A model generated the notes under the pieces. The model had not been told where the DNA came from. It searched no databases and saw only the letters and a list, made by a program, of their open reading frames with translations. Positions 32,997 to 56,265 of a stretch of 64,000 bases of DNA are shown in pieces (position 1 is the stretch's first letter; the number at the start of each line of letters is the position of its first letter). The position numbers and the translations under genes were made by a program. The DNA is taken from assembly GCA_016700155.1 (NCBI GenBank), contig CP065001.1:2746659-2810658 (forward strand). The letters are read 5' to 3'. The stretch comes from Ignavibacteriales bacterium. GTDB lineage: Bacteria; Bacteroidota; Ignavibacteria; Ignavibacteriales; Ignavibacteriaceae.

Positions 32997-33368
32997 GAAC
33001 ACTTAACATATCGATTCCCTCAGAGCAATTCCGTTTTGAGGGAATAGATTTTACTGATGATGGATATTGATGCTGGATACTGGATACTGGATGCTTGCTC
33101 TCTGATGCCGGATAATTCCTAAATCACAAATCGTTGATCTTCATTCGTTAATCATTCCTAAGTAATCCTATTCGTCTTTACCTCTGTATTCTGCTGCGTA
33201 ATAGTACACTGAACCGCATTCAATCAACAATTCTTTATGATGATTATGATTTTGACAGATAAACCCACAAAAAAACTACTGACTATTGTTTGAGTTCTTC
33301 TGTTTGAACTATTTGTCTATTTATCAGCTACAGGTGGAATCGTTAATCATATATGATAATGGTTCAGT

Positions 33369-33655
33369 TTGAGTGCATTTCTCATCACGTTTAGCATATT
33401 CCCGTTCACATTGAGTACATTCCCGTTCTCGTTTAGTACATTTCTGTTCACGTTAAGTACATTTCTGTTCACGTTGAGTACATTTCTGTTCACGTTTAAT
33501 ACATCCCGATTCACATTAAGTACATTTCAGTTCACATTAAGTACATTTCAGTTCACATTAAGTACACTTCCGTTCAAGTTAAGTACATTTCTATTCACGT
33601 TAAGTACATTTCCGTTCACATTAAGTACATTCCTGTTCACGTTTAGTACATTCCT
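33369..33655. repeat. Tandem array of about 13.7 copies of a 21-bp unit (consensus ttaagtacatttctgttcacg)
   Basis: Copies were read directly from the sequence. Because the 21-nt period is a multiple of three, an artefactual 106-aa ORF (FTLSTFL heptads, TTG start) runs through the array. Confidence 0.9.
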
Positions 33656-33705
33656 AAGAGAATTTTATTTGTTTTTGTTAAATAAATGAGGAAAAAGGTT
33701 GAGTT

Positions 33706-34101
33706 ATGTTAAAGTTTAATTTCAAGTCTGTGTTCGCTGCACGCGGGATTCAGAGTCCAACAGGGTTTTTAAGAAGGGCTGGGTTTTCTCCGCATACTGC
33801 TTCTTATATAGCAACGGGTAAGGTTGAGAAGTTGAATTTAAAGTTGTTAGAGAGGTTGTGCATTTTACTTAATTGCACTCCGCACGATTTGCTTGAGTGG
33901 GTTCCGGACACTAAGCTGGCTGACCCAGGCAGGTTTGAGTTGAGCAAGTTGGCTGGTGAGAGGAAAGTACATTCGCTGCAGGATGATTTGAGCGAACTGA
34001 CGCTGGGGAAGGTGGAGGAGGTGAAGAGGTTTATTGAGGAGAAGAGGAAAGAAACAACCTCACCCCCGCCCCCTCTCCTTGGTAAGGAGAGGGGTGAGTG
34101 A
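33706..34101 (+). CDS. XRE/Cro-C1-type helix-turn-helix DNA-binding protein
   Basis: '…ATGKVEKLNLKLLERLCILLNCTPHDLLEW' is an HTH_26-like motif. The last ~15 codons ('TTSPPPPLLGKERGE') are encoded by a GC-rich hairpin, so the true C-terminus may be altered. Confidence 0.65.
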   Translation: MLKFNFKSVFAARGIQSPTGFLRRAGFSPHTASYIATGKVEKLNLKLLERLCILLNCTPHDLLEWVPDTKLADPGRFELSKLAGERKVHSLQDDLSELTLGKVEEVKRFIEEKRKETTSPPPPLLGKERGE

Positions 34102-34204
34102 TGAGAAGATTTTTTTATTTAAATTTACGGCGGTAATTGTTGTTCACCGGGACGCCTTGAACAACATCTGCAGAATTACCGACCCCCAGCCCGGTGACGT
34201 TCCT

Positions 34205-34231
34205 GCCCGGCGTCCCGGGCGTTTTTATTTT
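34205..34231 (+). terminator. Rho-independent terminator (GCCCGG-cgtc-CCGGGC plus TTTTTATTTT)
   Basis: A 6-bp GC stem with a T-tract closes a roughly 130-nt GC-rich, hairpin-dense segment (34060-34235) downstream of the HTH gene. Confidence 0.65.
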
Positions 34232-34451
34232 AAATATTGAAAGTACTTATGAATTAATATAAGTTGGAATTGATTTTATACGCCCCTTTAGAATCCTTTA
34301 AATCCCGGGGCAGTGCTTTGAGGCAGTTGTACAGGTTTGGCTTGTATGTGGAAAGCGGATCGGGAGAAAAAATAGTTAAGAGTTTAAAATTATGAGTTAT
34401 GAATTGAAGGACAATTGGAACATATATCCACCTAAGGCGGACAAGTATGCA

Positions 34452-34487
34452 GCCGCGTGCGGGTCTATGTTCTTTATTTAACTAATT
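34452..34487 (+). promoter_or_regulatory. Copy 1 of the conserved island intergenic motif (CCGCgtGCGG palindrome, then GTTCTTTAtTTAAcTAAtt)
   Basis: The sequence is shared with copies at 35461..35504 and 36390..36447. It lies 40 nt upstream of the 34528 CDS. Confidence 0.5.
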
Positions 34488-34527
34488 CACGCAGGTTAAT
34501 TATAAGTTATATTACTAAGAGGAATCA

Positions 34528-35397
34528 ATGCAAGAAGAAAAAATTAAAAAAGGTTTTACGATAAACCAAAAATGGATATTCGCAATCGTATTCAATATCC
34601 TTTTATTGTTGATTGGATACAAAATAGTATTTGCAGATTATCTTATTGATTTAACAAAATTTACATTTTCAGATTTTCTTGCACTATTTCTAGCGCTTTT
34701 CTCAATTGCTATTTCAGTAGCCTTCTATTTTAAAGCAACAGATTCTAGCAGTCGCTTTTATGATAATACATATAAATTCACAAAAGACATTGCAGAATTA
34801 CTGGTTAAAATCGAAAGTAGTTTTGGGGAAAGATTAAAACATCTTGATGAGGGATATACAAGTATTAGGGATAAGTTTGATAAAATACCAAGTTCGACTA
34901 TTACTAAAGAAAAGGTTCAAACTCAAGAAGAGTTAGATGAGGTAAAAAAAGAATTTGAAAAGAAATTGAAAGAGAAAGAGACATTATTAAATGATACTCT
35001 ACAAAAAGCACATTCAAATGAAAAGGATAGAAAGTTTATAATAAATCAACTTAACAAAAAAGAAGTTGAGCTACAGCTTGAGAAAGAGAAAGTTGAATTA
35101 TTAGAAGAAAAATTGATGAGTTATAATAATTTGGAAAGAGAAAGAAGCAGAAAGTTTATTCCACCATCAACGAAAATGTTATGGATGCACTCGATTTTAA
35201 TCCCCTTAGGAGAAAAATTTATTAAAAATGCTTCTTATACTGAATTAAATAAAAAATTTCAAGAAAATTTAAAAAACTTTTCAGAGAAAGCACTTCTAGA
35301 TGTATACAGATATGGAATGATGGATAAAGATAAAAATTTAACCGAAGAAGGTTTTCATTATTTAAAAGAACTAGCAAATAATACTGGCGTAATATAA
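34528..35397 (+). CDS. Hypothetical membrane protein: two N-terminal TM helices and a long cytoplasmic coiled coil
   Basis: Hydrophobic segments at about aa 15-35 and 48-68, then a K/E-rich heptad region ('LEKEKVELLEEKL'). No catalytic motif was recognised. Confidence 0.5.
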   Translation: MQEEKIKKGFTINQKWIFAIVFNILLLLIGYKIVFADYLIDLTKFTFSDFLALFLALFSIAISVAFYFKATDSSSRFYDNTYKFTKDIAELLVKIESSFGERLKHLDEGYTSIRDKFDKIPSSTITKEKVQTQEELDEVKKEFEKKLKEKETLLNDTLQKAHSNEKDRKFIINQLNKKEVELQLEKEKVELLEEKLMSYNNLERERSRKFIPPSTKMLWMHSILIPLGEKFIKNASYTELNKKFQENLKNFSEKALLDVYRYGMMDKDKNLTEEGFHYLKELANNTGVI

Positions 35398-35460
35398 CAA
35401 GTGCTTCAACCCGACAGCGTTTTCGCATTTGGTTTTTTTATAATTTTAGCGTTTAGTGCT

Positions 35461-35504
35461 CCGTTTCGGGTAACTTGTTCAAAGTGTTCTTACTAAATTA
35501 ATTT
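35461..35504 (+). promoter_or_regulatory. Copy 2 of the conserved island intergenic motif (…gtttcgggtaACTTGTTCAAAGTgTTCTTactAAATTAAttt)
   Basis: Shares the 'ttcgggt…acttgttcaaagt…tcttta.t.aattaa' core with copy 3. A perfect 13-bp palindrome follows at 35509..35546. Confidence 0.5.
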
Positions 35505-35508
35505 ACTT

Positions 35509-35546
35509 GCAAACCGTGCTTGCAAAGAAAGATAAGCACGGTTTGC
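35509..35546. repeat. Perfect 13-bp inverted repeat (GCAAACCGTGCTT … AAGCACGGTTTGC) with a 12-nt loop
   Basis: Read directly. It lies in the intergenic region between island genes 34528 and 35640. Confidence 0.85.
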
Positions 35547-35639
35547 TAAATCATCGGCAGTTGTAGTTTTATTTGGCAGTCTTGTTCTGGGCTGCGGGTT
35601 AAGCACAAAGCCGTTAGCAAGCTTAAAGAGCATATATAA

Positions 35640-36335
35640 ATGGAAACTATAATTGCAGTTACAATAGCAGTATTTGGTTGGTTGACAAATCATTTCCTTA
35701 CTTTGAGAGCCCAAAGGAAATCCTTTATGGATCATTTGATCAATAATGCAAGAATAGAAATATGTAATGGAATCCGTGACTATATAGATTGGTTGAATAA
35801 ACTTGTTCAACATAATGCTACAATAAGCTTAATTATTGATTTCCCCGGTCAAATTGATAAACTTGAAAAGCCCTATAAATTTTATATTATCGAAATTAGA
35901 AAAACACTTAAAGAAGTATTTCTTGATCCAAGATTTATAACATTACTAAGTGAATATGAAACACTATTTCCTGAAACAAAACAAATAAACTCATATATAC
36001 ATAGAAAGCATATTGCATTATACATAAATATTGAAAGTGCAATTATGTTTGAAAACGAAAATGAGATTGACAAAAATAATTTTTTAAAGGCCATAAAAAA
36101 ATTAGATTTTAATCTTGTTGGAGCTCAACAAGCAGCAGTTAGAGATTTATTAATTGTTTTACAAAACTTAACCTTAGGAAAAATTAAAAAGTATAAAAAA
36201 GAATTTTCTGCATATCCAATGACAAAGCATCCAAGAATATTGTTGGATAAAAATCGGAATATCAAAATAGTTCAATATGGCGAAAAAGATTATCCAATTA
36301 ATGCTGAATTAGATAAATTATTAGAAAATAAATAG
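35640..36335 (+). CDS. Hypothetical protein with an N-terminal TM anchor
   Basis: 'ETIIAVTIAVFGWLTNHFL' hydrophobic helix followed by a roughly 200-aa soluble domain with no known motif. Confidence 0.45.
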   Translation: METIIAVTIAVFGWLTNHFLTLRAQRKSFMDHLINNARIEICNGIRDYIDWLNKLVQHNATISLIIDFPGQIDKLEKPYKFYIIEIRKTLKEVFLDPRFITLLSEYETLFPETKQINSYIHRKHIALYINIESAIMFENENEIDKNNFLKAIKKLDFNLVGAQQAAVRDLLIVLQNLTLGKIKKYKKEFSAYPMTKHPRILLDKNRNIKIVQYGEKDYPINAELDKLLENK

Positions 36336-36389
36336 CTTGCTAACCTGTTGCTCAACGCCGACCGCTTCGCTTTAGCGGTGGTTTTCAAG

Positions 36390-36447
36390 TTTTCGGGTTG
36401 GTTCTTTTTAGCTGGTTACTTGTTCAAAGTTCTTTAGTTAATTAACC
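36390..36447 (+). promoter_or_regulatory. Copy 3 of the conserved island intergenic motif (ttttcgggt…ttACTTGTTCAAAGTTCTTTAgtTAATTAAcc), preceded by the ACCGC…GCGGT palindrome at 36361-36379
   Basis: Aligned by eye to copies 1 and 2. It lies 95 nt upstream of the 36542 CDS. Confidence 0.5.
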
Positions 36448-36541
36448 GTTTTTTTAATTTTAATTGTGGTGCTTTTCGGCTGCTTTCAAGTTATGGGCGG
36501 CGCGTTAGCAGCCACGCCGTTATAAATAAAAGGATTTGTAA

Positions 36542-37918
36542 ATGGAGTTTAAATATCCTAAGGACTTAATAAAAATTTTAAAAGAAAGATGGTTTAATTT
36601 TCAAAAAACGTTAGATACACCTTCGAAGAAGTTTAAAAAACAAAAGGATAAAGATTTTCCTAATGATAGAAATTTAAAAACGATATTGAATGTCATTTAC
36701 CATGCGTCATTTTTAACCGAGGAAAGTCGAAGGATTGCTTATAGAATAGGTTATGTGTCACCAGAAAAATGTGAACAAAAAATATCTGATATTAATATGA
36801 TTAGTGAGCCAATAAAATTATTAATTCCAGTTCCATTCACAGTTCAAGAGATATTAAAAATAGCACCTTCTGTTAATCCAAATCAGTCTCTAGTATTAAT
36901 TTCTGAAGGGGATAAAATTCAAACTAACTTAGAAAATAGTGAATTGTATATATGGGGAATACTTGATTTAGGTTCTGAATGGTGGGAAGTTGTCTCTGGT
37001 TTATCATCTGCTGCGATGTGTCCGCCAAATATTTTGACTGTAAGTTCCACTTCACCTGGAAATATTACGGTCACTACAATTGGTTCTGTATTGTTTCGGC
37101 TTTCAGCTGGTAAAATCTTGGGAACACCTTTAGAAGATTTAAGTTTGGGCTTAATTGGTGGATTTTTAGATAATAGCGCGAAGGCATTATATAGTGATTC
37201 GGTAAAAAGAATTAAAGTGGAAAAATATGATGAAAGAGAGGATTCAGATAAATACCCATACCAGACTTATTATCAAACATTCAACAGTATTCTGAATTTT
37301 GCAAAAGATAAATTACATGGAGCCACATTTATCGTAATTCCAGACGAAATAAATTACAATGATACTCGTTTAACAGATCGAATTAATATAAAATATATTT
37401 TCGATAAAGATATCATATGGGATAAGTTAATAGACTTATGTGAAGCCAATTATTTTTATTACAAGACATTATTTTATGATAAATTCAAAATGATTCTTGA
37501 TAAAAGGAAAGCATCACCGAAAGAATTAAAGGATCTAATTAAATGGGAAAATTCCAAACAGCAGCTTGAAAAAAAAATAATTGATATTGAAAAATTTATT
37601 GCTCAGTTATCTTGTGTTGATGGCGCTGTTGTTCTTACATCTAAATTAAGAATAATTGGTTATGGAGGTGAAATACTAGCTCAATCTTCTAGTTTGACCT
37701 CAATAAAATCTGCAAATGATCCGGATGCCAAATCTTATATAGAAGTAGATATAAATAATTTTGGAACTCGACATCGTTCAGCATTCAGAATGTGTTCAAG
37801 TTTTGATAATTGTGTCGCTTTTGTAATTTCCCAAGATGGAGGTATCAAGGCAGTTAAACGAAATGGACCCAATTTAATTTTGTGGAATAATGTTAATCTT
37901 GGAGAGACTAGTATTTAG
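36542..37918 (+). CDS. Diadenylate-cyclase (DAC/DisA_N)-like domain protein with an uncharacterised ~250-aa N-terminal domain
   Basis: The C-terminal half carries the three DAC hallmark motifs. They read 'HGATFIVIPDE' (cf. RHGALIVIE), 'DGAVVLTSKLRIIGYGG' (cf. HDGAVIxxxxRIxAAGC) and 'GTRHRSAF…VAFVISQDGG' (cf. GTRHRAA…VSEETG). An insertion of about 80 aa separates the first two motifs. The N-terminal region has no recognisable motif. Confidence 0.6.
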   Translation: MEFKYPKDLIKILKERWFNFQKTLDTPSKKFKKQKDKDFPNDRNLKTILNVIYHASFLTEESRRIAYRIGYVSPEKCEQKISDINMISEPIKLLIPVPFTVQEILKIAPSVNPNQSLVLISEGDKIQTNLENSELYIWGILDLGSEWWEVVSGLSSAAMCPPNILTVSSTSPGNITVTTIGSVLFRLSAGKILGTPLEDLSLGLIGGFLDNSAKALYSDSVKRIKVEKYDEREDSDKYPYQTYYQTFNSILNFAKDKLHGATFIVIPDEINYNDTRLTDRINIKYIFDKDIIWDKLIDLCEANYFYYKTLFYDKFKMILDKRKASPKELKDLIKWENSKQQLEKKIIDIEKFIAQLSCVDGAVVLTSKLRIIGYGGEILAQSSSLTSIKSANDPDAKSYIEVDINNFGTRHRSAFRMCSSFDNCVAFVISQDGGIKAVKRNGPNLILWNNVNLGETSI

Positions 37919-38026
37919 GTATCACCTCTTTAATCCGTCAAGACCGGACAAGTAAGTAAAGAGTCCATAAAGTGGCAAGCAATGGTACAAACAGTAAAAG
38001 TATATCAGTCCGAATAATTTAATTTT

Positions 38027-46341: not shown

Positions 46342-49300
46342 ATGCAAATTAATAGACTGTTTACTGAGGCTGGTAAGGATCCTCTATCTTCAATGGAGTT
46401 TGAAAAAAGAACATCAGAGATAAAAAATCCTGATGGTTCAACTGTATTTAAGATGGAAGATGTTTACGTGCCGGCACAATGGTCGCAGGTTGCAACAGAC
46501 ATCATCGCGCAAAAATATTTTCGTAAAGCAGGGGTGCCAAAACTCCTGAAAAAAAATAAGGAGAAAGGAATTCCTTCATGGCTTCAGCCTGCAAAAGCTG
46601 ATATTGAGAAACTTGAACAGCTTCCTGAGAAAGAAAGATTTTCATCAGAGACTGACTCACGTCAGGTGTTTCATCGTTTGGCAGGATGCTGGACTTACTG
46701 GGGATGGATTGCAAATTATTTTTCATCCGAAGACGATGCAAAAGCATTCTATGATGAACTGGTTTATATGCTTGCCAACCAGATGGCCGCCCCGAATAGC
46801 CCGCAATGGTTTAATACAGGTTTGAACTGGGCATATGGAATTTCCGGTCCTTCACAGGGACATTATTATGTTGATTACAAAACCGGAGAATTAACTGCAT
46901 CTACTGATGCATACACACATCCCCAGCCTCATGCATGTTTTATTCAATCAGTAAAAGATGACCTTGTTAATGAAGGCGGAATTATGGACCTGTGGGTGCG
47001 TGAAGCCCGCCTGTTCAAATATGGTTCAGGCACCGGTTCAAATTTCTCCGACATAAGAGGTTCACAGGAAACACTTAGCGGCGGCGGAAGATCTTCGGGA
47101 TTAATGTCTTTCCTTAAAATCGGTGACCGGTCTGCGGGTGCAATTAAATCCGGCGGAACAACACGCCGTGCCGCAAAAATGGTTACACTTGATCTCGATC
47201 ACCCGGATATTGAAGAGTACATCAACTGGAAAGTTGTTGAAGAACAGAAAGTTGCAGCTATAGTAGCGGGTTCTAAATTATGTAATATTCATTTGAACAA
47301 AATTATGAAAGCCTGTTATGATGAACACCCGGAAAATGACAGGTTCAATAAAAATGTAAATAAAAGATTAAAGCAGGCTGTACTTGAAGCAAGAAAAGTT
47401 CAGATACCGAATAACTATATTGAACGTGTTATTCATCTTGCAAAACTTGGATTCAAATCGATTGAGTTCCCTGTGTATGATACAGATTGGAACTCTGATT
47501 CCTACGCGACAGTATCAGGACAAAATTCCAACAACTCTATCCGCGTTACAAATGATTTTATGCAGGCTGTACAGAATGACGGCAACTGGAACCTGTACTG
47601 GCGTGTAGAAAAGAAAAAAGCAAGAAATGAGAAACGTTCTCCTAAACCATGCAAAACTCTTAAAGCAAGAGAGTTGTATGATCAGATATCTTATGCTGCA
47701 TGGTCATGCGCCGATCCGGGAATTCAGTTCCACTCTACTATTAATGAATGGCATACCTGCCCGGAAGATGGGGAAATAAAAGCATCCAATCCCTGCAGTG
47801 AATACATGTTCCTTGATGATACGGCTTGTAATCTCGCTTCACTAAACCTTGTTAAGTTTTATAATTCATCCGTTCAAAAATTTGATATAGAAGCTTACCG
47901 GCATGCAACAAAGATCTGGACAATGGTTCTGGAAATAAGTGTACTGATGGCTCAATTTCCTAGTAAGGAAATTGCAAAATACAGTTATGAATTCAGGACT
48001 CTGGGATTGGGTTATGCAAATCTTGGTTCATTACTTATGCTTCAGGGAATTCCTTATGACAGCAGCGAAGCGTTTGCAATCTGCGGAGCTATCACAAGTA
48101 TAATGCATATGAGCTCGTATGCTGCGTCTGCTGAGATTTCTAAGGAGATCGGACCATTCCCCAAATACGACAGAAATAAAAATCATATGCTTCGCGTAAT
48201 CCGCAACCACAGGCGTGCTGCATACAATGTTCCCAAGGAGGAGTATGAAGGGCTTTCTATTTACCCGGTCGGTATTGATCCAAAGCATTGTCCTTCCGAT
48301 CTATTAAAAGCTGCCCGTGAAGACGCTGACAAAGCTCTGGAGCTTGGTTCACAATTCGGATTCAGAAATGCGCAGGTAACTGTAATAGCACCAACCGGTA
48401 CAATAGGTCTGGTGATGGATTGTGATACTACTGGTGTTGAACCTGATTTCGCTCTGGTAAAATTCAAAAAACTTGCCGGTGGCGGTTATTTCAAAATAAT
48501 AAATCAATCAATTCCTCCTGCACTTGAAAGATTAGGATATAATAAAGATCAGATTACTGAAATAGTGAAGTACGCAAAAGGTTCAGGCACATTAGCCGGA
48601 TGTCCTTATATAAATCATGAATCACTAAAAGCAAAAGGGTTCACTCCCGAAGCTCTGACAAAACTTGACAAAGCAATTCCGTCAGCATTCGAATTGAGTT
48701 TTGCTTTCAACAAATTTACTCTGGGTGAAGAATTCCTGACTGCAAAACTTGGAATACCATCAGAGGAAATAAACTCATTCGATTTTAATCTGCTTACGAC
48801 TCTTGGTTTTTCCAAACAGGAGATAGCATCAGCAAATGATTATGTATGCGGTACCATGACGATTGAAGGTGCACCATTCCTTAAACATGAACATTACCCA
48901 GTGTTTGATTGCGCAAACAGGTGCGGTAAAAAAGGAACAAGATTCATCCGTCCGATTGCGCATATAAGAATGATGGCTTCGGCTCAGCCCTTCATTTCAG
49001 GGGCTATATCCAAGACGATTAATCTTCCAAACCAGGCATCAGTTGAAGATGTTAAGGATGCGTATCTGCAGTCATGGAAAATGGGAATCAAAGCAAATGC
49101 TCTATACCGTGACGGTTCAAAACTTTCACAGCCGTTAAACTCCGTAAGTGAAGAAGAACTTGAAGCTTTGATGGATGAAAAAGAACGCAATGATATTGTT
49201 AAAGTAGCGGAAAAAATTATTCATCGTTACATCGCAAAGAGAAGAAGACTTCCGGACAGAAGATCCGGCTATACACAAAAAGCAAAAATTAATGGTCAAT

Positions 49301-49935
49301 CCGTTTACATACGTACAGGTGAATATGAAAACGGTCAGATAGGTGAAATATTTATTGATATGCACCGTGAAGGCGCATCATTCCGAAGCCTGCTTAACTG
49401 TTTTGCAATTTCAATTTCACTTGGATTACAACACGGTGTACCGCTTGAAGAATTCATTGATGCATTTGTGTTCACCAAGTTTGAACCGAGCGGAATGGTA
49501 AGCGGTAACGATAAAATTAAAATGTCCACATCAGTGATTGATTATATCTTCCGCGAACTTGCGGTTACATATCTTGGAAGAAATGATCTGTCTCACGTTG
49601 ACCCTGATGAAATAAAATCTAAAGCTTCTCCCGGAATAGTAAAAAAGTTATCTGAACCTGAATTTATCAGTGAAGAACTGATTAGTGAAAGAGTTGTAGA
49701 ACTGGATGAAGAAAAACTTAGTTCTTACCGCAACAGTATGACGACTGTTGAAAATTCGGGGAAACGTTCCGAAAGCTTTAACAGGTCCGGTTCAAATTTC
49801 TCAAAGACAATCCGGCAGGCAATTGAACGGGGATACACCGGTGATATTTGTACTGAATGCCAAAGTGTGACAATGGTCAGGAACGGAACATGCTTAAAAT
49901 GTATCACCTGCGGTGCTACTTCGGGATGCAGTTGA
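46342..49935 (+). CDS. nrdJ: Adenosylcobalamin-dependent (class II) ribonucleoside-diphosphate/triphosphate reductase
   Basis: Active-site Cys loop '[21 protein letters not shown]' in a 1197-aa protein. The C-terminus ends in a CxxC…CxxC zinc ribbon ('CTECQ…CLKCITCG'). Confidence 0.85.
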
Positions 49936-52177: not shown

Positions 52178-52903
52178 TTAGAATGAACCGTTGTTCTCCA
52201 TACGCCGACCTCCCATGAATCTTTTCGAATAGTAATCGAGATCAAGCGATGAAACAATCACACCTTTTTTTGAACTGGCATGTGCAAATAAATTATCCCC
52301 AATATAAATTCCCACATGTCCGGGTTTTACTCTTCTGCGGGTATTAAAAAAAACGAGATCACCAAATTTTAACTCTTCCCTGTTATCAATTTTAGTCCCT
52401 TGTGTATACTGCTCTCTTGCAGATCTCAGAAGCTGGATTGAAAGGGTGTTATTGAAAATAGTCTGTGTAAATGCGGAACAGTCAATTCCTTTTTTTGAAT
52501 TACCGCCATACTTATAAGGTGTGTTGAGATACTCGATTATTTCCATCAAAACTTTTTCCTGCATGTTACTATAGTCAGCAGATATTTGAGAACTATTATC
52601 TGATGGATTAATTTTTCTAACTACTTCAGAAAAAGAGACTGCTGTTTCTTCATCTGGAAATTCATCGGAATCTGAATCATCTACAAGATAGTCCCATTCA
52701 AGCGAATCGGCATCCTCTATATCAACGGGGCTTGTTTGTACTGTATCGACTGAAGTGAACCGGACACTGTTCTCGTAGCGTTCTGAAATTGTCTCGCCGG
52801 ATGATTTATAACGTAATGAATTTGAGGAGGAAGCACAGCCGGAATTGAAACTAATCCCGGCTATGATGATGATTGAAACAAAATATCTTTGAAGTTTAAT
52901 CAT
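52178..52903 (-). CDS. NlpC/P60-family peptidoglycan endopeptidase lipoprotein
   Basis: The lipobox 'FNSGC' follows the signal peptide. The C-terminal catalytic triad context reads 'GIDCSAF…GDLVFF…HVGIY'. Confidence 0.75.
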   Translation of the reverse strand: MIKLQRYFVSIIIIAGISFNSGCASSSNSLRYKSSGETISERYENSVRFTSVDTVQTSPVDIEDADSLEWDYLVDDSDSDEFPDEETAVSFSEVVRKINPSDNSSQISADYSNMQEKVLMEIIEYLNTPYKYGGNSKKGIDCSAFTQTIFNNTLSIQLLRSAREQYTQGTKIDNREELKFGDLVFFNTRRRVKPGHVGIYIGDNLFAHASSKKGVIVSSLDLDYYSKRFMGGRRMENNGSF

Positions 52904-52909
52904 TAAACC

Positions 52910-53764
52910 TCAACCCAGGTAAGTTCTCAGGTTTTTACTTCTGGAAGCGTGTCTGAGTCTGCGGATTGCTTTTTCTTTAATCTGTCTTACGCGTTCACGT
53001 GTTAAATTAAATCTTTCGCCTATTTCTTCAAGAGTAAGTGAGTGTTCTTTATTCAAACCGAAGTATAATTTTATTACCTCGGCTTCTCTTTCTGTTAAAG
53101 TTGAAAGTGCGCGGTCAATTTCTGTTTTAAGCGATTCAGTCATCAGCGTGTGATCCGGTGATGGTTGCTGATCATTCTGAATCACATCAAGAAGCCTGTT
53201 ATCCTCCCCCTGCGCGAATGGCGCATCCATTGAAACATGTCTGCCGGAAATTTTTAAAGTGTCTGCCACTTCACTAACATCCATATCAAGTTCCTGGGCT
53301 AGTTCGGTAGCGCTTGGCTCTCTCTCAAATTCCTGTTCAAGGTTGCTGTACGCTTTTCCTATTTTATTTAAAGCTCCGACTCTGTTTAACGGCAGGCGCA
53401 CTATTCTTGACTGCTCAGCAAGTGCCTGAAGAATAGATTGTCTGATCCACCAAACCGCATAAGAAATAAATTTAAATCCTCTTGTTTCGTCGAATCTTTT
53501 AGCTGCTTTTATTAACCCGAGGTTCCCTTCGTTTATTAAGTCACCGAGAGACAAACCCTGGTTCTGATATTGTTTAGCAACACTTACTACGAAACGAAGA
53601 TTCGCTTTAGTTAACATCTCTAACGCAAGCTGATCACCCTTTTTTATTCGTATCGCAAGTTCTATTTCCTGATCCGGTACAAGAAGATCAACCTTTCCAA
53701 TTTCCTGCAAGTATTTATCAAGAGACTGGCTCTCCCGATTTGTATATTGCTTGGTTATTCTCAC
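52910..53764 (-). CDS. rpoD: Primary-type RNA polymerase sigma-70 factor (RpoD/SigA, compact FCB-group form)
   Basis: Region 2 motif '[35 protein letters not shown]' and a region 4 HTH. The 284-aa length is typical of Bacteroidetes-type SigA. Confidence 0.8.
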
Positions 53765-53785: not shown

Positions 53786-54061
53786 TCATTGATTTATTGT
53801 ATCTACTATTCCGACTATCGAAGCATCAACCGGGGCAAAATCGACCGGCAGTGGTATTACAGCTTCAGATGCTGTTATATAAAAAATTATTTCACCCGGT
53901 CCCGCACCCACTGTATCAACTGCAATAAGCGGTTCGCCATTATTTTTCTTTTCAGAATTCAAGGGCTGAACAATCAGAAACTTGAAATTCTCTAAAGTTT
54001 CATATTTCCTTGTAGCCCAAACTGTTCCTATAACTTTTCCAAGGAACATCAGGATCTCCAT
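53786..54061 (-). CDS. Bacterial-microcompartment vertex (BMC-P; EutN/CcmL/PduN family) protein, copy 2
   Basis: 'FLGKVIGTVWATRK…IAVDTVGAGPGEIIF' resembles EutN 'VIGTVVSTQK…VAVDLVGAGAGD'. Confidence 0.7.
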   Translation of the reverse strand: MEILMFLGKVIGTVWATRKYETLENFKFLIVQPLNSEKKNNGEPLIAVDTVGAGPGEIIFYITASEAVIPLPVDFAPVDASIVGIVDTINQ

Positions 54062-54153
54062 ATATTGTTTATGGAGTCGTTAAATCTATTGAAAACAGCC
54101 GGAAATTTAACATTAAATGGGCTCAAATAAAAGGTAAAAATCTTGTGAACCAT

Positions 54154-54432
54154 CTATTTTGAGACCTCATTTACATCAATTTTATCAACAATAGCCATAA
54201 TTACTGCGTCTACCGGTTTATTTTTTGTTATCTCAGTCTGACGTGAAGAACTTCCGGTCGCAACCAAAACAATTTCTCCTACACCTGCCCCAACACTATC
54301 CACTGCAACTACGAAGTCAGGTTTTTCAATTAAACTCAGATCTAATCTTTTAACAACAAGAAACTTTGAGCCAACAAGATTTTCATCCTTTTGTGTACTC
54401 CATACTGTTCCAATAACTTTTCCGATAAACAA
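54154..54432 (-). CDS. Bacterial-microcompartment vertex (BMC-P; EutN/CcmL/PduN family) protein, copy 1
   Basis: 'MFIGKVIGTVWSTQKDENLVGSKFLVVKRL…VVAVDSVGAGVGEIVLVATGSSSRQ' aligns along its full length with E. coli EutN. Confidence 0.75.
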   Translation of the reverse strand: MFIGKVIGTVWSTQKDENLVGSKFLVVKRLDLSLIEKPDFVVAVDSVGAGVGEIVLVATGSSSRQTEITKNKPVDAVIMAIVDKIDVNEVSK

Positions 54433-54435
54433 TTG

Positions 54436-54825
54436 TTACCTCTTTGGGATTATTACTTTAACCTGATCGGATACGTTTTTATATTTTTTATTATCCAGAG
54501 TTACAATTTTTAGTTTATTTATTTTTGCCAATACATAAACCAATGCATCCCTGTTTGTTCTTACTTTTTTATTCAGACCAGGAACTGATAAACTATATCT
54601 TGAATTCAATCCCAGTACTTTTAATGAATTTAATAATTGAATTACTGAATCCCTATCCTCAATATTATTCACTGAAAATAAAAGTTCAGAGGCATTAATA
54701 ACGGATGTGTAACATATTCCTTTTTGCATAAACTTTTCCAGCGTCGACTCAGTCGCTTTTGTTTTATGAGTGAGATGCTCAATAAGTATATCAGTTTCAA
54801 TAAGGAATTCCTGAGCTTTTACCAA
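54436..54825 (-). CDS. PIN-domain-like protein (VapC-like?)
   Basis: Acidic residues sit at PIN-like positions ('LIETDILIEHL', '…ASELLF', 'RDALVY…TLDNKK'). The assignment is weak. Confidence 0.35.
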   Translation of the reverse strand: MVKAQEFLIETDILIEHLTHKTKATESTLEKFMQKGICYTSVINASELLFSVNNIEDRDSVIQLLNSLKVLGLNSRYSLSVPGLNKKVRTNRDALVYVLAKINKLKIVTLDNKKYKNVSDQVKVIIPKR

Positions 54826-54827
54826 TT

Positions 54828-55130
54828 TCAGTTTTTAATATTTAATTTTTTGATACTTCCCTTACTCTTATAAAATCCTATCAGCAGTTCATCATTTAAT
54901 GATTGTACTTGTTTTATAAGGCTCTTCTTTCTTTCTGGAATGAGATTCAGCATTTCATCTTCAGTAGAAATCGGAATTACTTCAATCTGAACTTTTTTAA
55001 TCGCATATTGTTTTACATAGTCGACAAAGTCGACTGGCAAACTTTTAAATTGAATCTCATCAACTTTTTCTATCCAGGTAAATTTATTTTTTACTGAATT
55101 TTTATTCATTGAGAAAACTTTTTCCGTCAA
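54828..55130 (-). CDS. Hypothetical 100-aa protein (possible partner of the PIN-like gene)
   Basis: ORF only. It is separated by 2 nt from the downstream PIN-like gene and overlaps the deoB stop. Confidence 0.3.
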   Translation of the reverse strand: MTEKVFSMNKNSVKNKFTWIEKVDEIQFKSLPVDFVDYVKQYAIKKVQIEVIPISTEDEMLNLIPERKKSLIKQVQSLNDELLIGFYKSKGSIKKLNIKN

Positions 55131-56265
55131 GATTATTTTTCACATTATAAAAAGCGGCAACAGTTTTACCGACATCAGCAAATGTACTACGAACACCCAA
55201 ATCTTTTCCGGTTTTGTTTTTACCATAGTACAAAATCGGAACATACTCCCGGCTGTGATCTGTACTTGGTGTAGTAGGATCATTACCATGGTCCGCTGTA
55301 ATAATTAACCTGTCTGATGCATTTAAAGTTTCCAAAAAATCAGGCAAAAATTTATCAAATTGCTCAAGCGCTTTAGCAAATCCTTCTGGATCATTTCTAT
55401 GCCCATAATAGACATCGAAATCCACCAGGTTTGCAAATATCAAACTATCTTTAGCTTTAGACGAATATTCCAAAAGTTTGTTACAACCTTGTTCGTTCGA
55501 TTTTGTGAATTCAGGAGTAACTATGCCCCGATGATTAAACAGGTCATTTATCTTTCCGATAGCAACGGTTTTAATTCCATTGGATTTTAAAACATCCAGA
55601 ACCGTATCCGATGGCGGTGATAGCGAAAAATCTTTCCTGTTTGTAGTTCTTGTAAATCGACCGTCACTTCCAATAAATGGACGAGCTATAACTCTGGCTA
55701 CATTTAATGGTTCAATTAATACTTTGCTTCTTGTTGTCTCACAAATTCTGTACAGTTCTTTTAAAGGAATTATATCCTCGTGCGCAGCAATTTGAAAGAC
55801 AGAATCCGCTGAAGTATAAACAATAGGGTAACCGGTTCTGATATGCTCTTCACCAAGCTGCTGAATTATTTCTGTGCCTGATGCTGCGATGTTTCCAAGG
55901 TATCCTTCAATCTGATTCAAATGCAAAAATTTGTCAATTATGTAGTCCGGAAATCCAGAATGAAAATATGAAAAATCCTTTTCGAGAATTATTCCGCCTA
56001 ATTCCCAATGCCCTGTGGTCGAATCTTTCCCTTTTGAACTTTCAATCATTTTTCCGAAAGATGCTTTCGGCTGTTCGGTTTTATTCACACCTTTAATTCC
56101 CGTGATGTTGCCTAAACCCAGGTTACAAAGGTTTGGAAGGTTTAGTCCGTTCACTGCTTCGGCAATATTGACGAGAGTGTTACTGCCTTCATCATTGTAT
56201 TTTTTAGCATCCGGCAATTCGCCGATACCAACTCCATCAAGTACAATGATAAAGAAATTATTCAA
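55102..56265 (-). CDS. deoB: Phosphopentomutase
   Basis: 'MNNFFIIVLDGVGIGELPDA' alkaline-phosphatase-superfamily N-terminus typical of DeoB, with the 'TADHGNDPT' metal site. Confidence 0.85.
   Translation of the reverse strand: MNNFFIIVLDGVGIGELPDAKKYNDEGSNTLVNIAEAVNGLNLPNLCNLGLGNITGIKGVNKTEQPKASFGKMIESSKGKDSTTGHWELGGIILEKDFSYFHSGFPDYIIDKFLHLNQIEGYLGNIAASGTEIIQQLGEEHIRTGYPIVYTSADSVFQIAAHEDIIPLKELYRICETTRSKVLIEPLNVARVIARPFIGSDGRFTRTTNRKDFSLSPPSDTVLDVLKSNGIKTVAIGKINDLFNHRGIVTPEFTKSNEQGCNKLLEYSSKAKDSLIFANLVDFDVYYGHRNDPEGFAKALEQFDKFLPDFLETLNASDRLIITADHGNDPTTPSTDHSREYVPILYYGKNKTGKDLGVRSTFADVGKTVAAFYNVKNNLDGKSFLNE

What the first reader, a model, noticed from the sequence alone, without database searches (positions are those of the whole stretch)
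53786..54825. Orphan tandem pair of BMC-vertex (EutN/CcmL) genes with no shell hexamer genes, beside a PIN-like gene and near deoB
Both 91- and 92-aa proteins align end to end with EutN/PduN pentamer proteins (GKVIGTVW…VAVD.VGAG.GEI). No BMC-H or BMC-T shell gene and no signature enzyme (aldehyde dehydrogenase, PduL or similar) appears within the window. The flanks are rpoD upstream and a PIN-like ORF, a 100-aa ORF and phosphopentomutase downstream. Satellite BMC-P genes do occur, but a duplicated pair detached from any shell locus is unusual. It could mean a distal main BMC locus. Sugar-phosphate-utilising BMC types involve deoxyribose-phosphate metabolism, which makes the deoB neighbour suggestive. 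A non-BMC use of the EutN fold is also possible.
Basis: partly seen in the sequence, partly recalled or inferred. Interest (0 to 1): 0.55.

Follow-up and report, generated by a model that had tools for sequence, protein, structure and literature searches.

The report
Satellite microcompartment vertex gene pair
Two adjacent genes for the five-sided corner proteins of a bacterial protein organelle sit far from the other shell genes, which is the usual, already catalogued 'fragmented' layout in Ignavibacteria and related phyla rather than an oddity.

Summary
Two minus-strand genes, 54154-54432 (A) and 53786-54049/54061 (B), are full-length PF03319 EutN/CcmL proteins. The 64-kb window has no BMC-H/T domain, aldehyde dehydrogenase, DERA or RpiB.

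The claim that the pair is unusual does not hold. The same A-then-B pair occurs in 70-75 of 80 related genomes: Ignavibacteria, Kryptonia, Chloroherpeton, Rhodothermales, Calditrichia and KSB1. None of these has a BMC-H within 10 kb; the one locus that does (L078, Deltaproteobacteria) is a shell locus carrying a single A-like gene, not the pair. The flanks are usually housekeeping genes: deoB upstream and an RpoD-like sigma factor downstream.

Sutter et al. 2021 already catalogue this taxon set and layout as the FRAG1 fragmented microcompartment. FRAG1 has a BMC-P triplet, two BMC-H and sometimes PduS/T, spread over up to six places. Axen et al. 2014 noted seven BMC-P genes in five loci in Melioribacter roseus.

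A and B are old paralogues, 46% identical. A groups with the Haliangium shell vertex protein (PDB 5V74). B belongs to a large clade that, in consolidated loci, lies beside a third BMC-P type, sugar-phosphate aldolases, BMC-H and PduS/T.

I could not check the rest of this 4.6-Mb genome. Verdict: ordinary and already known. The conserved deoB link is a modest lead.

The parts
54154..54432 (-). BMC-P paralogue A (92 aa, TTG start). This is the canonical 'GSSxRQT' type, closest to the main-locus vertex proteins of HO/SPU-type shells.
   Evidence: PF03319, E 2.7e-30, full length. Best solved relative is the Haliangium ochraceum shell BMC-P, 5V74 (E 3.6e-22, about 51% identity). It is 63% identical to the BMC-P next to a BMC-H in L078. 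The A+L078+HO clade has 78/100 NJ bootstrap support. Eighty orthologues are 58-82% identical. The interface glycine (PduN G52 equivalent) is invariant. An identical protein is in NCBI as 'EutN/CcmL family microcompartment protein [Ignavibacteriales bacterium]' on a 4,601,368-bp contig.
53786..54049 (-). BMC-P paralogue B (87 aa from the second ATG; the ORF list gives 91 aa from 54061). This is the divergent 'TASEAVIP' type that lacks the GSSAR arginine.
   Evidence: PF03319, E 7.7e-29. GGAG lies 6 nt before ATG 54049. 46% identical to A. Seventy-one orthologues are 41-82% identical. The B clade has 93/100 bootstrap support. E62, I65, P66 and G80 are conserved in B orthologues where A has S, Q, T and A. 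129 of the 150 best 50%-cluster representatives share the x-E-A motif and lack GSSAR. B-like genes lie in BMC loci with BMC-H, BMC-T, AldDH, PduS/T, DeoC or class II aldolase.
54436..54825 (-). PIN-domain gene lying between deoB and paralogue A. It is context, not a shell component, and is probably the toxin half of a VapBC-like pair.
   Evidence: PF01850, E 8.7e-9; weak VapC NCBIfam hits. The acidic residues D12, E47, D93 and D111 can be read directly from the translation. It is present in only 16 of 80 related loci, all Ignavibacteria-like. Its stop codon lies 3 nt before A's start, and A's AGAGG ribosome-binding site is inside its 3' end.
54828..55130 (-). 100-aa ORF with no family match, upstream partner of the PIN gene (possible antitoxin). 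It is context.
   Evidence: No Pfam or NCBIfam hit. Conserved in at least 8 loci, always together with the PIN gene. Called as a 93-aa gene on Logan contigs.
55102..56265 (-). deoB (phosphopentomutase), the conserved same-strand upstream neighbour of the pair.
   Evidence: NCBIfam NF003766, 530 bits, above its cut-off of 256. It lies directly upstream on the same strand in 40 of 70 loci with enough flank: Ignavibacteria-like 32/34, Rhodothermales 5/11, Calditrichia 2/3. Where no PIN gene intervenes, the gap to A is only about 15-90 nt.
52910..53764 (-). RpoD-like sigma-70 factor (284 aa), starting 21 nt after B's stop codon. It is the conserved downstream neighbour.
   Evidence: Sigma70 regions 1.2, 2, 3 and 4. 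RpoD/RpoS NCBIfam hits of about 270-300 bits, below the equivalog cut-offs. Directly downstream in 45 of 70 loci and within 9.5 kb in 57 of 80. No terminator-like site lies between deoB and NlpC outside coding sequence.

Best explanation
The two genes encode two different, anciently diverged BMC-P (vertex pentamer) proteins of a bacterial microcompartment whose shell genes are scattered around the chromosome. This is the FRAG1-type 'fragmented' arrangement already catalogued for Ignavibacteria and allied FCB-group phyla.

Paralogue A is the counterpart of the cap protein that follows BMC-H in consolidated HO/SPU-like loci. It most likely forms homopentamers that close the twelve vertices of a shell built from BMC-H (and sometimes PduT-like BMC-T) proteins encoded elsewhere.

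Paralogue B belongs to the second clade of the widespread 'BMC-P triplet'. Its specific role is unknown even in model systems. The third triplet member is expected elsewhere in the genome.

The pair lies in an operon-like block, deoB-(orf100-PIN)-A-B-sigma-NlpC/P60. This suggests constitutive or housekeeping-linked expression rather than substrate-induced expression.

Shown here: homology, clade membership, conservation and synteny. Inferred: pentamer formation, shell incorporation, co-transcription, and the presence of BMC-H genes in this particular genome.
For: Family membership:
- Both proteins match PF03319 over its full length. Solved BMC-P pentamers are their best PDB relatives.
- A groups with the Haliangium shell vertex protein and with a BMC-P adjacent to BMC-H and BMC-T in L078.

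B's clade elsewhere:
- B's relatives sit inside complete loci. L087 has B-like + BMC-P + DeoC + BMC-H.
- L092 has BMC-Tdp, BMC-H, an A-type P, AldDH, PduS, PduT, a B-type P, a C-type P and an aldolase/DeoC fusion.

Conservation:
- The A-then-B pair occurs in 70-75 of 80 related genomes. Identities of 41-82% across phyla indicate purifying selection on both genes.
- The interface glycine, which cannot be mutated in PduN (PMC9243111), is retained in 100% of A orthologues and 82% of B orthologues.

Literature:
- Sutter et al. 2021 describe FRAG1 as a shell-protein-only type, most prominent in Ignavibacteria and also found in Kryptonia, Bacteroidetes, Chlorobi and Rhodothermaeota. It has a BMC-P triplet plus two BMC-H at up to six genomic places.
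- Their BMC-P tree places FRAG1 Ignavibacteria proteins of 98 and 90 aa beside HO and SPU3 main-locus proteins. This matches where A falls here.
- M. roseus has seven BMC-P genes in five loci, a FRAG1-labelled BMC-T and a MIC4 BMC-H. A MAG labelled M. roseus (L023) carries this same pair in the same synteny.
Against: - No PF00936 gene was seen in this genome. Only 64 kb of about 4.6 Mb was available. Two attempts to find BMC-H/T proteins on pair-bearing contigs by contig-length fingerprint gave no match, but only the top 120 hits are listed, so this is uninformative.
- No BMC-H lies within 10 kb in any of the 79 FCB-group relatives.
- The FRAG1 assignment rests on taxon, layout and clade position. 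I did not match sequences to FRAG1-labelled entries.
- In consolidated loci the usual tandem pair is B-type + C-type, not A + B as here.
- The catalogue's authors found no enzymes or encapsulation peptides for FRAG1, so no organelle has been demonstrated for this type.
Confidence: 0.75

Rival explanations
1. This extends the main explanation. The pair is functionally coupled to deoB, and the FRAG1 compartment handles (deoxy)ribose-phosphate catabolism as SPU compartments do. Phosphopentomutase would supply deoxyribose-5-phosphate to an encapsulated aldolase encoded elsewhere.
For: - deoB lies directly upstream on the same strand in Ignavibacteria-like (32/34), Rhodothermales (5/11) and Calditrichia (2/3) loci, with gaps of about 15-90 nt where no PIN gene intervenes.
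- B-like genes lie next to DeoC, RpiB or aldolase/DeoC fusions in L087, L085 and L092.
- The catalogue notes DeoC next to a BMC-P in FRAG3 (Calditrichaeota, KSB1), and SPU signature enzymes in FRAG5 and FRAG8.
- A's clade in the published tree is named 'mixed-spu'.
- The SPU paper places deoB directly upstream of the presumed SPU substrate (PMC11585597).
Against: - All these lineages belong to one superphylum, so the adjacency may be inherited synteny. The sigma factor is equally conserved as a neighbour (45/70), and no one would link it to the pathway.
- deoB is absent from the neighbourhood in Kryptonia, Chloroherpeton, the other Bacteroidota-labelled loci and the KSB1-labelled loci, and from 7 of the 8 unclassified loci, while the pair persists.
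- No DeoC, RpiB or AldDH occurs in the window or within 10 kb in 80 loci.
- deoB is a general nucleoside-salvage enzyme.
Confidence: 0.3
2. The fold has been repurposed. In these lineages the two EutN-fold proteins work without any shell, for example as a small oligomeric scaffold or regulator tied to housekeeping genes, and no microcompartment is made.
For: - The pair is vertically conserved inside a housekeeping block next to an RpoD-like sigma factor and near the ribosomal protein/rpoA cluster. It is not in a mobile catabolic island.
- No BMC-H lies within 10 kb in 79 FCB-group relatives.
- B has lost the GSSAR arginine.
Against: - The catalogue lists two BMC-H, and often PduS/T, in FRAG1 genomes. 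M. roseus and Caldithrix, both with MAGs that carry this pair (L023, L075), have PF00936 genes listed.
- A keeps every canonical BMC-P motif and is 51-63% identical to shell-locus vertex proteins.
- B's motif is not specific to FCB lineages. It typifies a large clade that sits inside complete BMC loci.
Confidence: 0.1
3. The pair is a decaying remnant of a lost BMC locus and no longer has a function.
For: It is isolated from all other BMC genes in the window.
Against: - Both ORFs are intact, with good ribosome-binding sites.
- Order and sequence are conserved across at least six labelled lineages at 41-82% identity, with invariant motif residues. This is incompatible with neutral decay.
Confidence: 0.02

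Closest known systems
FRAG1 fragmented BMC locus type (Sutter, Melnicki, Schulz, Woyke & Kerfeld 2021, Nat Commun 12:3809, Supplementary Data 2)
   Same: - Same taxon range: Ignavibacteria foremost, then Kryptonia, Bacteroidetes, Chlorobi and Rhodothermaeota.
- Shell-protein-only pieces with no enzymes nearby.
- BMC-P paralogues from different major clades.
- FRAG1 green-clade BMC-P proteins of 98 and 90 aa sit beside HO and SPU3 main-locus proteins in the published tree, which is where paralogue A falls here.
   Different: - Only two of the expected three BMC-P genes are visible in this window, and none of the two BMC-H or PduS/T genes.
- I could not match sequences to FRAG1-labelled UniProt entries or run the authors' HMMs.
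- The catalogue does not mention the conserved deoB and sigma-factor neighbours, as far as I read it.
Haliangium ochraceum (HO) shell BMC-P and the HO type I satellite (two BMC-P plus an aldolase)
   Same: - A's best solved relative is the HO vertex pentamer, 5V74 (E 3.6e-22, about 51% identity).
- HO also splits its BMC-P triplet between a main locus and a satellite.
- B-like + C-type + class II aldolase satellites were found here in L083, L086 and L089.
   Different: - In HO the satellite pair is the two non-green paralogues next to an aldolase, while the green-type cap stays beside BMC-H.
- Here the green-like A is paired with B, no aldolase is adjacent, and there is no main locus in view.
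SPU (sugar-phosphate utilising) metabolosomes (PMC11585597)
   Same: - All SPU loci carry a BMC-P triplet.
- B-like genes lie beside DeoC or RpiB in L087, L085 and L092.
- deoB makes the presumed SPU substrate.
   Different: The SPU signature enzymes DERA (PF01791) and RpiB (PF02502), and the aldehyde dehydrogenase, are absent from the window and from all 80 related loci.
Melioribacter roseus satellite BMC-P loci (Axen, Erbilgin & Kerfeld 2014, PLoS Comput Biol 10:e1003898)
   Same: That paper reports seven BMC-P genes in five loci, four of them satellite or satellite-like. A MAG labelled M. roseus (L023) has deoB-orf100-PIN-A-B-sigma-NlpC, the same order as this window.
   Different: The window's organism is a different Ignavibacteriales species (A's best GTDB-representative match is 81-84% identical). 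I did not see the locus tags of the M. roseus pair.
Alpha-carboxysome CsoS4A/CsoS4B pair
   Same: Two adjacent BMC-P paralogues that always co-occur.
   Different: CsoS4A/B lie inside the carboxysome operon with the shell hexamers and Rubisco. Both window proteins score far below the CsoS4 equivalog cut-offs (34 and 33 bits against 120).

Membership tests
BMC-P / EutN-CcmL vertex protein family (Pfam PF03319) | Full-length match to the PF03319 profile above the gathering score | tested here: met
   A scores 105.1 bits and B 100.5 bits against a cut-off of 25. Both cover profile positions 1-83 of 83.
BMC-P / EutN-CcmL vertex protein family (Pfam PF03319) | Conserved D-x-x-G-A-G-x-G-E loop, including the glycine buried in the pentamer-hexamer interface (PduN G52) | tested here: met
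   A has VDSVGAGVGE and B has VDTVGAGPGE. The G52-equivalent glycine is kept in 100% of 80 A orthologues and 82% of 71 B orthologues. Its immutability in PduN is reported in PMC9243111.
   A keeps it (GSSSRQT; the A-clade consensus is GSSARQT). B does not (TASEAVIP; E62, I65 and P66 are conserved). Loss of this loop is typical of a whole BMC-P clade found inside complete BMC loci, so it does not exclude membership.
BMC-P / EutN-CcmL vertex protein family (Pfam PF03319) | Assembles as a pentamer and caps shell vertices | not testable with these tools
   This can only be inferred from about 51% identity of A to the pentamer in the 5V74 shell, and from B's match to the GrpN chain 4I7A, deposited as five chains.
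BMC-P / EutN-CcmL vertex protein family (Pfam PF03319) | Co-occurs with PF00936 (BMC-H/T) genes in the same genome | not testable with these tools
   PF00936 is absent from the window and from +/-10 kb in 79 FCB-group relatives. Fingerprint attempts were uninformative. The literature lists PF00936 genes for FRAG1 genomes, M. roseus and Caldithrix.
FRAG1 fragmented BMC type (Sutter et al. 2021) | Taxon range: Ignavibacteria, Kryptonia, Bacteroidetes, Chlorobi, Rhodothermaeota | tested here: met
   An identical protein is annotated in an Ignavibacteriales MAG. Orthologous pairs occur in exactly these groups, plus Calditrichia and KSB1.
FRAG1 fragmented BMC type (Sutter et al. 2021) | Shell-protein-only pieces with no BMC enzymes adjacent | tested here: met
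   Neighbours in the window and in 80 loci are deoB, a sigma factor, NlpC/P60, GAF-GGDEF, PCMT, DHPS, Ham1, HtrA and similar genes. There is no AldDH, PTAC, DeoC, RpiB or aldolase.
FRAG1 fragmented BMC type (Sutter et al. 2021) | [quoted passage not shown] | tested here: inconclusive
   Two of the three are present. A is green-like by its position next to HO and L078 main-locus proteins. B belongs to a second clade, and a third (C-type) clade accompanies it in consolidated loci. No C-type gene is in the window. The authors' colour-clade HMMs were not available.
FRAG1 fragmented BMC type (Sutter et al. 2021) | Two BMC-H (one standard, one about 229 aa with a C-terminal domain), and a PduS/T pair in some genomes, elsewhere in the genome | not testable with these tools
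   See the co-occurrence row above. The 229-aa FRAG1 BMC-H sits on a very long branch, so I also ran a profile HMM on the window. It found nothing.
SPU sugar-phosphate metabolosome | DERA (PF01791) and/or RpiB (PF02502), plus an aldehyde dehydrogenase, in the locus | tested here: not met
   tblastn with DeoC and RpiB queries found nothing in the window or in the 80 loci. The Pfam scans found no PF00171.
VapBC-type toxin-antitoxin pair (for the PIN gene and orf100 only) | PIN domain with the four acidic catalytic residues, preceded by a small antitoxin gene | tested here: inconclusive
   PF01850, E 8.7e-9. D12, E47, D93 and D111 are present. The VapC equivalog scores are far below cut-off (19 bits against 140). 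The upstream 100-aa ORF matches no antitoxin family.

The most novel reading that the evidence does not exclude
The pair may be part of an ancient, vertically inherited deoB-A-B operon in the common ancestor of Ignavibacteriota, Rhodothermota and Calditrichota. If so, phosphopentomutase would be the first conserved enzyme linked to the otherwise enzyme-less FRAG1 compartment. That would point to a constitutively expressed organelle for deoxyribose-phosphate (DNA or nucleoside) catabolism. Alternatively, it could point to a shell-independent role for the A/B pentamers in nucleoside metabolism.
Probability: 0.2. Interest if true: 0.55.

Novelty: already known. Interest (0 to 1): 0.2.

Why it matters
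As it stands the finding matters little. The locus is a routine instance of a catalogued arrangement, and the protein is already annotated in NCBI as a microcompartment protein.

It touches two open questions in the field:
- What do the 'fragmented' BMC types do? No enzyme or encapsulation peptide has been found for them.
- Why do so many compartments carry three different vertex paralogues when twelve pentamers are enough?

Two by-products of this check could help specialists:
- In FCB-group genomes the green-like cap gene is paired with only one of the other two paralogues. This pair has stayed next to deoB and an RpoD-like sigma factor across phyla.
- Consolidated loci such as L092 carry the FRAG1 component classes (BMC-P triplet, BMC-H, PduS/T), plus a BMC-Tdp, AldDH and an aldolase/DeoC fusion, in one place. 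They offer a template for predicting the missing enzymes.

Tried and rejected
1. Finding BMC-H/T in the same genome.
- I then searched the protein database with a PduT-like BMC-T and a BMC-H taken from low-GC consolidated loci. I looked for hits whose longest-contig length equalled that of a pair-bearing contig (4,601,368; 3,012,490; 3,503,168 and others). There was no match.
- Only the best 120 of 326 and of at least 7,999 hits are listed, so this says nothing either way.
- The listing of cluster members on ten BMC-T hits returned almost no organism names.

2. The look-up of encoding contigs on the window protein returned only short Logan contigs, not the NCBI genome.

3. Assigning B to the 'grey' or 'orange' clade. 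The published phyloXML is cut at 400k characters and shows only green-clade FRAG1 entries. The supplementary PDF text was not informative.

4. The Sutter 2017 shell-structure paper is not held, so interface residues beyond the PduN G52 equivalent could not be checked.

5. A first bootstrap run timed out. I repeated it on half the loci with a faster distance routine.

6. Rejected: recent duplication (A and B are 46% identical, with separate cross-phylum orthologues); a pseudogene remnant (strong conservation); SPU membership (signature enzymes absent).

7. I did not run structure prediction. The fold is not in doubt at these E-values, and a monomer model would not address pentamer or shell assembly.
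Full report
**1. What is in the sequence**

On the minus strand the region reads, in order of transcription:
- deoB, 55102-56265
- a 100-aa ORF, 54828-55130
- a PIN-domain gene, 54436-54825
- BMC-P paralogue A, 54154-54432
- BMC-P paralogue B, 53786-54061
- an RpoD-like sigma factor, 52910-53764
- an NlpC/P60 peptidase, 52178-52903

A and B each match Pfam PF03319 (EutN_CcmL) across all 83 profile positions, with E 2.7e-30 and 7.7e-29. PIN matches PF01850 at E 8.7e-9. deoB reaches 530 bits on the phosphopentomutase equivalog. The 100-aa ORF matches nothing.

The sequence gives some further detail:
- A's TTG start lies 3 nt after the PIN stop codon, and an AGAGG sits inside the PIN 3' end.
- B most likely starts at the second ATG (54049, 87 aa). 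A GGAG lies 6 nt upstream, and that start gives the family's usual N-terminus.
- The sigma-factor gene starts 21 nt after B's stop codon.

No terminator-like site separates these genes outside coding sequence. The promoter scan is at background level, and it does not cover Bacteroidota-type promoters in any case.

**2. Is the window really free of other microcompartment genes?**

Yes.
- tblastn with PduA, EutM and CcmK2 gave nothing better than E 1.3.
- The published FRAG1 hexamer with a C-terminal extension sits on a very long branch. I therefore built a profile from BMC-H sequences and BMC-T half-domains and ran it with filters off over every stop-to-stop ORF. The best E-value was 1.3.
- tblastn with DeoC, RpiB, a BMC-H and three 'third-type' BMC-P queries found only A and B.
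- Pfam scans of about 46 ORFs show housekeeping content. This includes FtsZ and MraZ at the ends of what gene order suggests is the dcw cluster (about 6.9-23.3 kb; the mur/fts genes between them were not scanned), L17 and RpoA from 58.9 kb, a class II ribonucleotide reductase, a P-type ATPase, CorA, a ClC channel and an ABC transporter.

**3. How common is the arrangement?**

One scan of one genome per GTDB species found at least 163 relatives of A. The best 80 were fetched with 10-kb flanks. They come from Ignavibacteriales, Melioribacteraceae, Kryptonia, Chloroherpetonaceae, Rhodothermales, Calditrichia, KSB1 and several unclassified FCB-group MAGs. One Deltaproteobacterium (L078) is also among them.
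- A second BMC-P follows the first in 75 of 80 loci. The order is A then B in 70.
- None of the 79 FCB-group loci has a PF00936 domain within 10 kb, by phmmer or by profile HMM.
- Neighbours are housekeeping genes. Ignavibacteria have L17, EngB, GAF-GGDEF, deoB, sigma factor, NlpC/P60 and fumarase. Rhodothermales have PCMT, a CdaA-like gene (judged from its N-terminal sequence only) and DHPS. The KSB1-like group has HtrA and Ham1.
- deoB is directly upstream on the same strand in 40 of 70 loci with enough flank: 32/34 Ignavibacteria-like, 5/11 Rhodothermales and 2/3 Calditrichia.
- The sigma factor is directly downstream in 45 of 70 loci, and within 9.5 kb in 57 of 80.
- The PIN gene is present in only 16 loci, all Ignavibacteria-like.

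The pair is therefore the invariant unit inside an old synteny block. It is not an orphan peculiarity of this genome. The identical A protein is already in NCBI as 'EutN/CcmL family microcompartment protein [Ignavibacteriales bacterium]', on a contig of 4,601,368 bp.

**4. The two genes are different, old paralogues**

A and B are 46% identical. A's orthologues are 58-82% identical to it, and B's are 41-82%. In a neighbour-joining tree of 82 sequences the B clade has 93/100 bootstrap support. A, together with L078's BMC-P and the Haliangium ochraceum shell BMC-P, has 78/100.

A's best solved relative is that Haliangium vertex pentamer (5V74, E 3.6e-22, about 51% identity). B's best is GrpN (4I7A, E 8e-16).

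In L078 an A-like gene (63% identical) directly follows a BMC-H and lies about 1 kb downstream of a BMC-T-like gene.

Column by column:
- Both clades keep the N-terminal G-x-x-W-x-T-x-K, the D-x-x-G-A-G-x-G-E loop and the C-terminal P-V-D-A-x-I-x-x-I-V-D.
- The glycine equivalent to PduN G52 is invariant in A and 82% conserved in B. Mills et al. found this glycine buried in the pentamer-hexamer interface and intolerant of substitution (PMC9243111).
- The clades differ most in the G-S-S-A-R-Q-T loop. A keeps it. B has T-A-S-E-A-V-I-P, with E, I and P conserved.

**5. B's clade is a normal part of complete microcompartment loci**

A full HMMER scan of 1.84 billion cluster representatives with B found 1,944 relatives at E <= 1e-3 and 302 at E <= 1e-10. 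Of the best 150, 129 lack G-S-S-A-R, and the ones I read carry an x-E-A motif like B's.

I looked up the genomic context of nine of these; seven gave interpretable contexts and two (P0121, P0124) were on contigs under 1 kb:

| Locus | Gene content |
|---|---|
| L083, L086, L089 | B-like, a third BMC-P type ('C-type', E-G-N-x-x-R-Q loop), class II aldolase |
| L087 | B-like, BMC-P, DeoC, BMC-H |
| L085 | an ORF that reads as RpiB-like (by eye; no family search run), B-like, C-type |
| L088 | BMC-P, AldDH, B-like, C-type, aldolase |
| L090, L091 | AldDH, BMC-T, B-like, C-type |
| L092 | CsoS1D-like BMC-T, BMC-H, A-type BMC-P (56% to A), AldDH, PduS, PduT, B-type (45% to B), C-type, class II aldolase/DeoC fusion |

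This reproduces the published 'BMC-P triplet'. It also shows that A and B correspond to two of its three members. In consolidated loci the tandem pair is B + C, and A sits beside BMC-H. In this window and its relatives the pair is A + B, and C is absent from the neighbourhood.

**6. What the literature already says**

Sutter et al. 2021 (PMC8217296) define 'fragmented' (FRAG) BMC types. Their shell genes lie in up to six genomic places, mostly remote from enzymes, and they share a BMC-P triplet. [quoted passage not shown]

Their Supplementary Data 2 describes FRAG1 (57 loci) as follows:
- a shell-protein-only type, most prominent in Ignavibacteria
- also found in Kryptonia, Bacteroidetes, Chlorobi and Rhodothermaeota
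- a PduS/T pair in 24 of the loci

Their BMC-P tree places FRAG1 Ignavibacteria proteins of 98 and 90 aa in a green sub-clade beside HO, SPU3 and MIC7 main-locus proteins. This is where A falls in my analysis.

[quoted passage not shown] MAGs labelled M. roseus (L023) and Caldithrix abyssi (L075) carry the pair studied here.

Axen et al. 2014 (PMC4207490) had already remarked that M. roseus holds the record of seven BMC-P genes, in five loci, four of them satellites.

The same catalogue notes a DeoC aldolase next to a BMC-P in FRAG3 (Calditrichaeota, KSB1), and SPU signature enzymes in FRAG5 and FRAG8.

**7. Best explanation and its limits**

The pair is a satellite piece of a FRAG1-type fragmented microcompartment. 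A is most likely the vertex cap. [quoted passage not shown] The tight spacing with deoB, PIN and the sigma factor suggests co-transcription with housekeeping genes.

What I could not do is look at the other 4.5 Mb of this genome. Two protein-database searches that looked for PF00936 proteins on pair-bearing contigs were uninformative, because only 120 hits are shown.

The statement 'BMC-H genes exist elsewhere in this genome' therefore rests on the catalogue's description of the type, not on a test made here. I put 0.75 on the main explanation and 0.10 on a shell-independent use of the fold. Pseudogene remnants are essentially excluded by the conservation.

**8. The deoB question**

- The deoB-A-B adjacency, with short same-strand gaps, recurs in three labelled lineages.
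- B-like genes lie beside DeoC or RpiB elsewhere.
- FRAG3, FRAG5 and FRAG8 carry DeoC.
- deoB makes the presumed SPU substrate.

Against it:
- These lineages are related, and the sigma factor is an equally faithful neighbour.
- deoB has left the neighbourhood in Kryptonia, Chloroherpeton, the other Bacteroidota-labelled loci, the KSB1-labelled loci and 7 of the 8 unclassified loci, while the pair stayed.
- No aldolase or aldehyde dehydrogenase is nearby in any of the 80 loci.

I rate a true functional link at about 0.3.

**9. Verdict**

On novelty, this is already known. It is a catalogued fragmented BMC type, and the protein is already annotated as a microcompartment protein. Interest is low (0.2). 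The residual value is the conserved deoB and sigma-factor synteny and the A + B (rather than B + C) pairing, as small leads into the unknown function of FRAG compartments.

Noticed in passing
window 54436-55130 (-): A PIN-domain gene with all four acidic residues, plus an upstream 100-aa ORF with no family, sits exactly between deoB and BMC-P paralogue A. It occurs in 16 of 36 Ignavibacteria-like loci and in no other lineage. It looks like a VapBC-like toxin-antitoxin pair fixed inside the operon-like block. The PIN stop codon and A's start are 3 nt apart.
   Followed up: partly
window 53786-54061 (-): The longest-ORF start of paralogue B (ATG 54061, 91 aa) is probably wrong. The second ATG (54049) has a GGAG 6 nt upstream and gives the family's usual N-terminus. 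A Logan gene call also gives 87 aa.
   Followed up: yes
L092 1852-8339 (Logan SRR14067718 contig, GC 0.41): This consolidated locus holds CsoS1D-like BMC-T, BMC-H, A-type BMC-P, AldDH, PduS, PduT, B-type and C-type BMC-P, and a 426-aa fusion of class II aldolase and DeoC domains. It has the FRAG1 component classes (BMC-P triplet, BMC-H, PduS/T) plus BMC-Tdp and enzymes in one place. The aldolase/DERA fusion is unusual.
   Followed up: partly
proteins P0135 (179 aa), P0146 (121 aa), P0219 (188 aa): Some cluster representatives appear to join two BMC-P domains (A-type and B-type parts) in one ORF. They could be real tandem fusions, or frameshift or gene-call artefacts. They also show that A-type and B-type genes lie next to each other in high-GC organisms outside the FCB group.
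   Followed up: no
window 33300-38000 (+): This is a low-GC stretch (0.31-0.33, against about 0.36 for the window) on the opposite strand. It holds an HTH_26 protein, two ORFs with no family (289 and 231 aa), and a 458-aa protein with a DACNV sensor domain and a diadenylate-cyclase (DAC) domain. It may be an acquired island or a signalling or defence module.
   Followed up: no
window 46342-49935 (+): This is a very long (1,197 aa) class II B12-dependent ribonucleotide reductase. The barrel domain matches in two stretches, and there is a C-terminal TSCPD domain. The length and the split match could mean an insertion or an intein.
   Followed up: no
L064, L073, L075, L080 (Calditrichia), about +540 to +860 from A's start: A conserved ORF of about 106 aa (my cluster c53) lies between paralogue B and the sigma-factor gene, in Calditrichia only. 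It was not scanned against any family library.
   Followed up: no
L044-L061, L072 (Rhodothermales and an unclassified MAG), upstream of deoB: A conserved, membrane-looking protein of about 450 aa with no Pfam match (my cluster c27) always precedes deoB in Rhodothermales. This gives c27-deoB-A-B there, in place of the GAF-GGDEF-deoB-A-B seen in Ignavibacteria.
   Followed up: no
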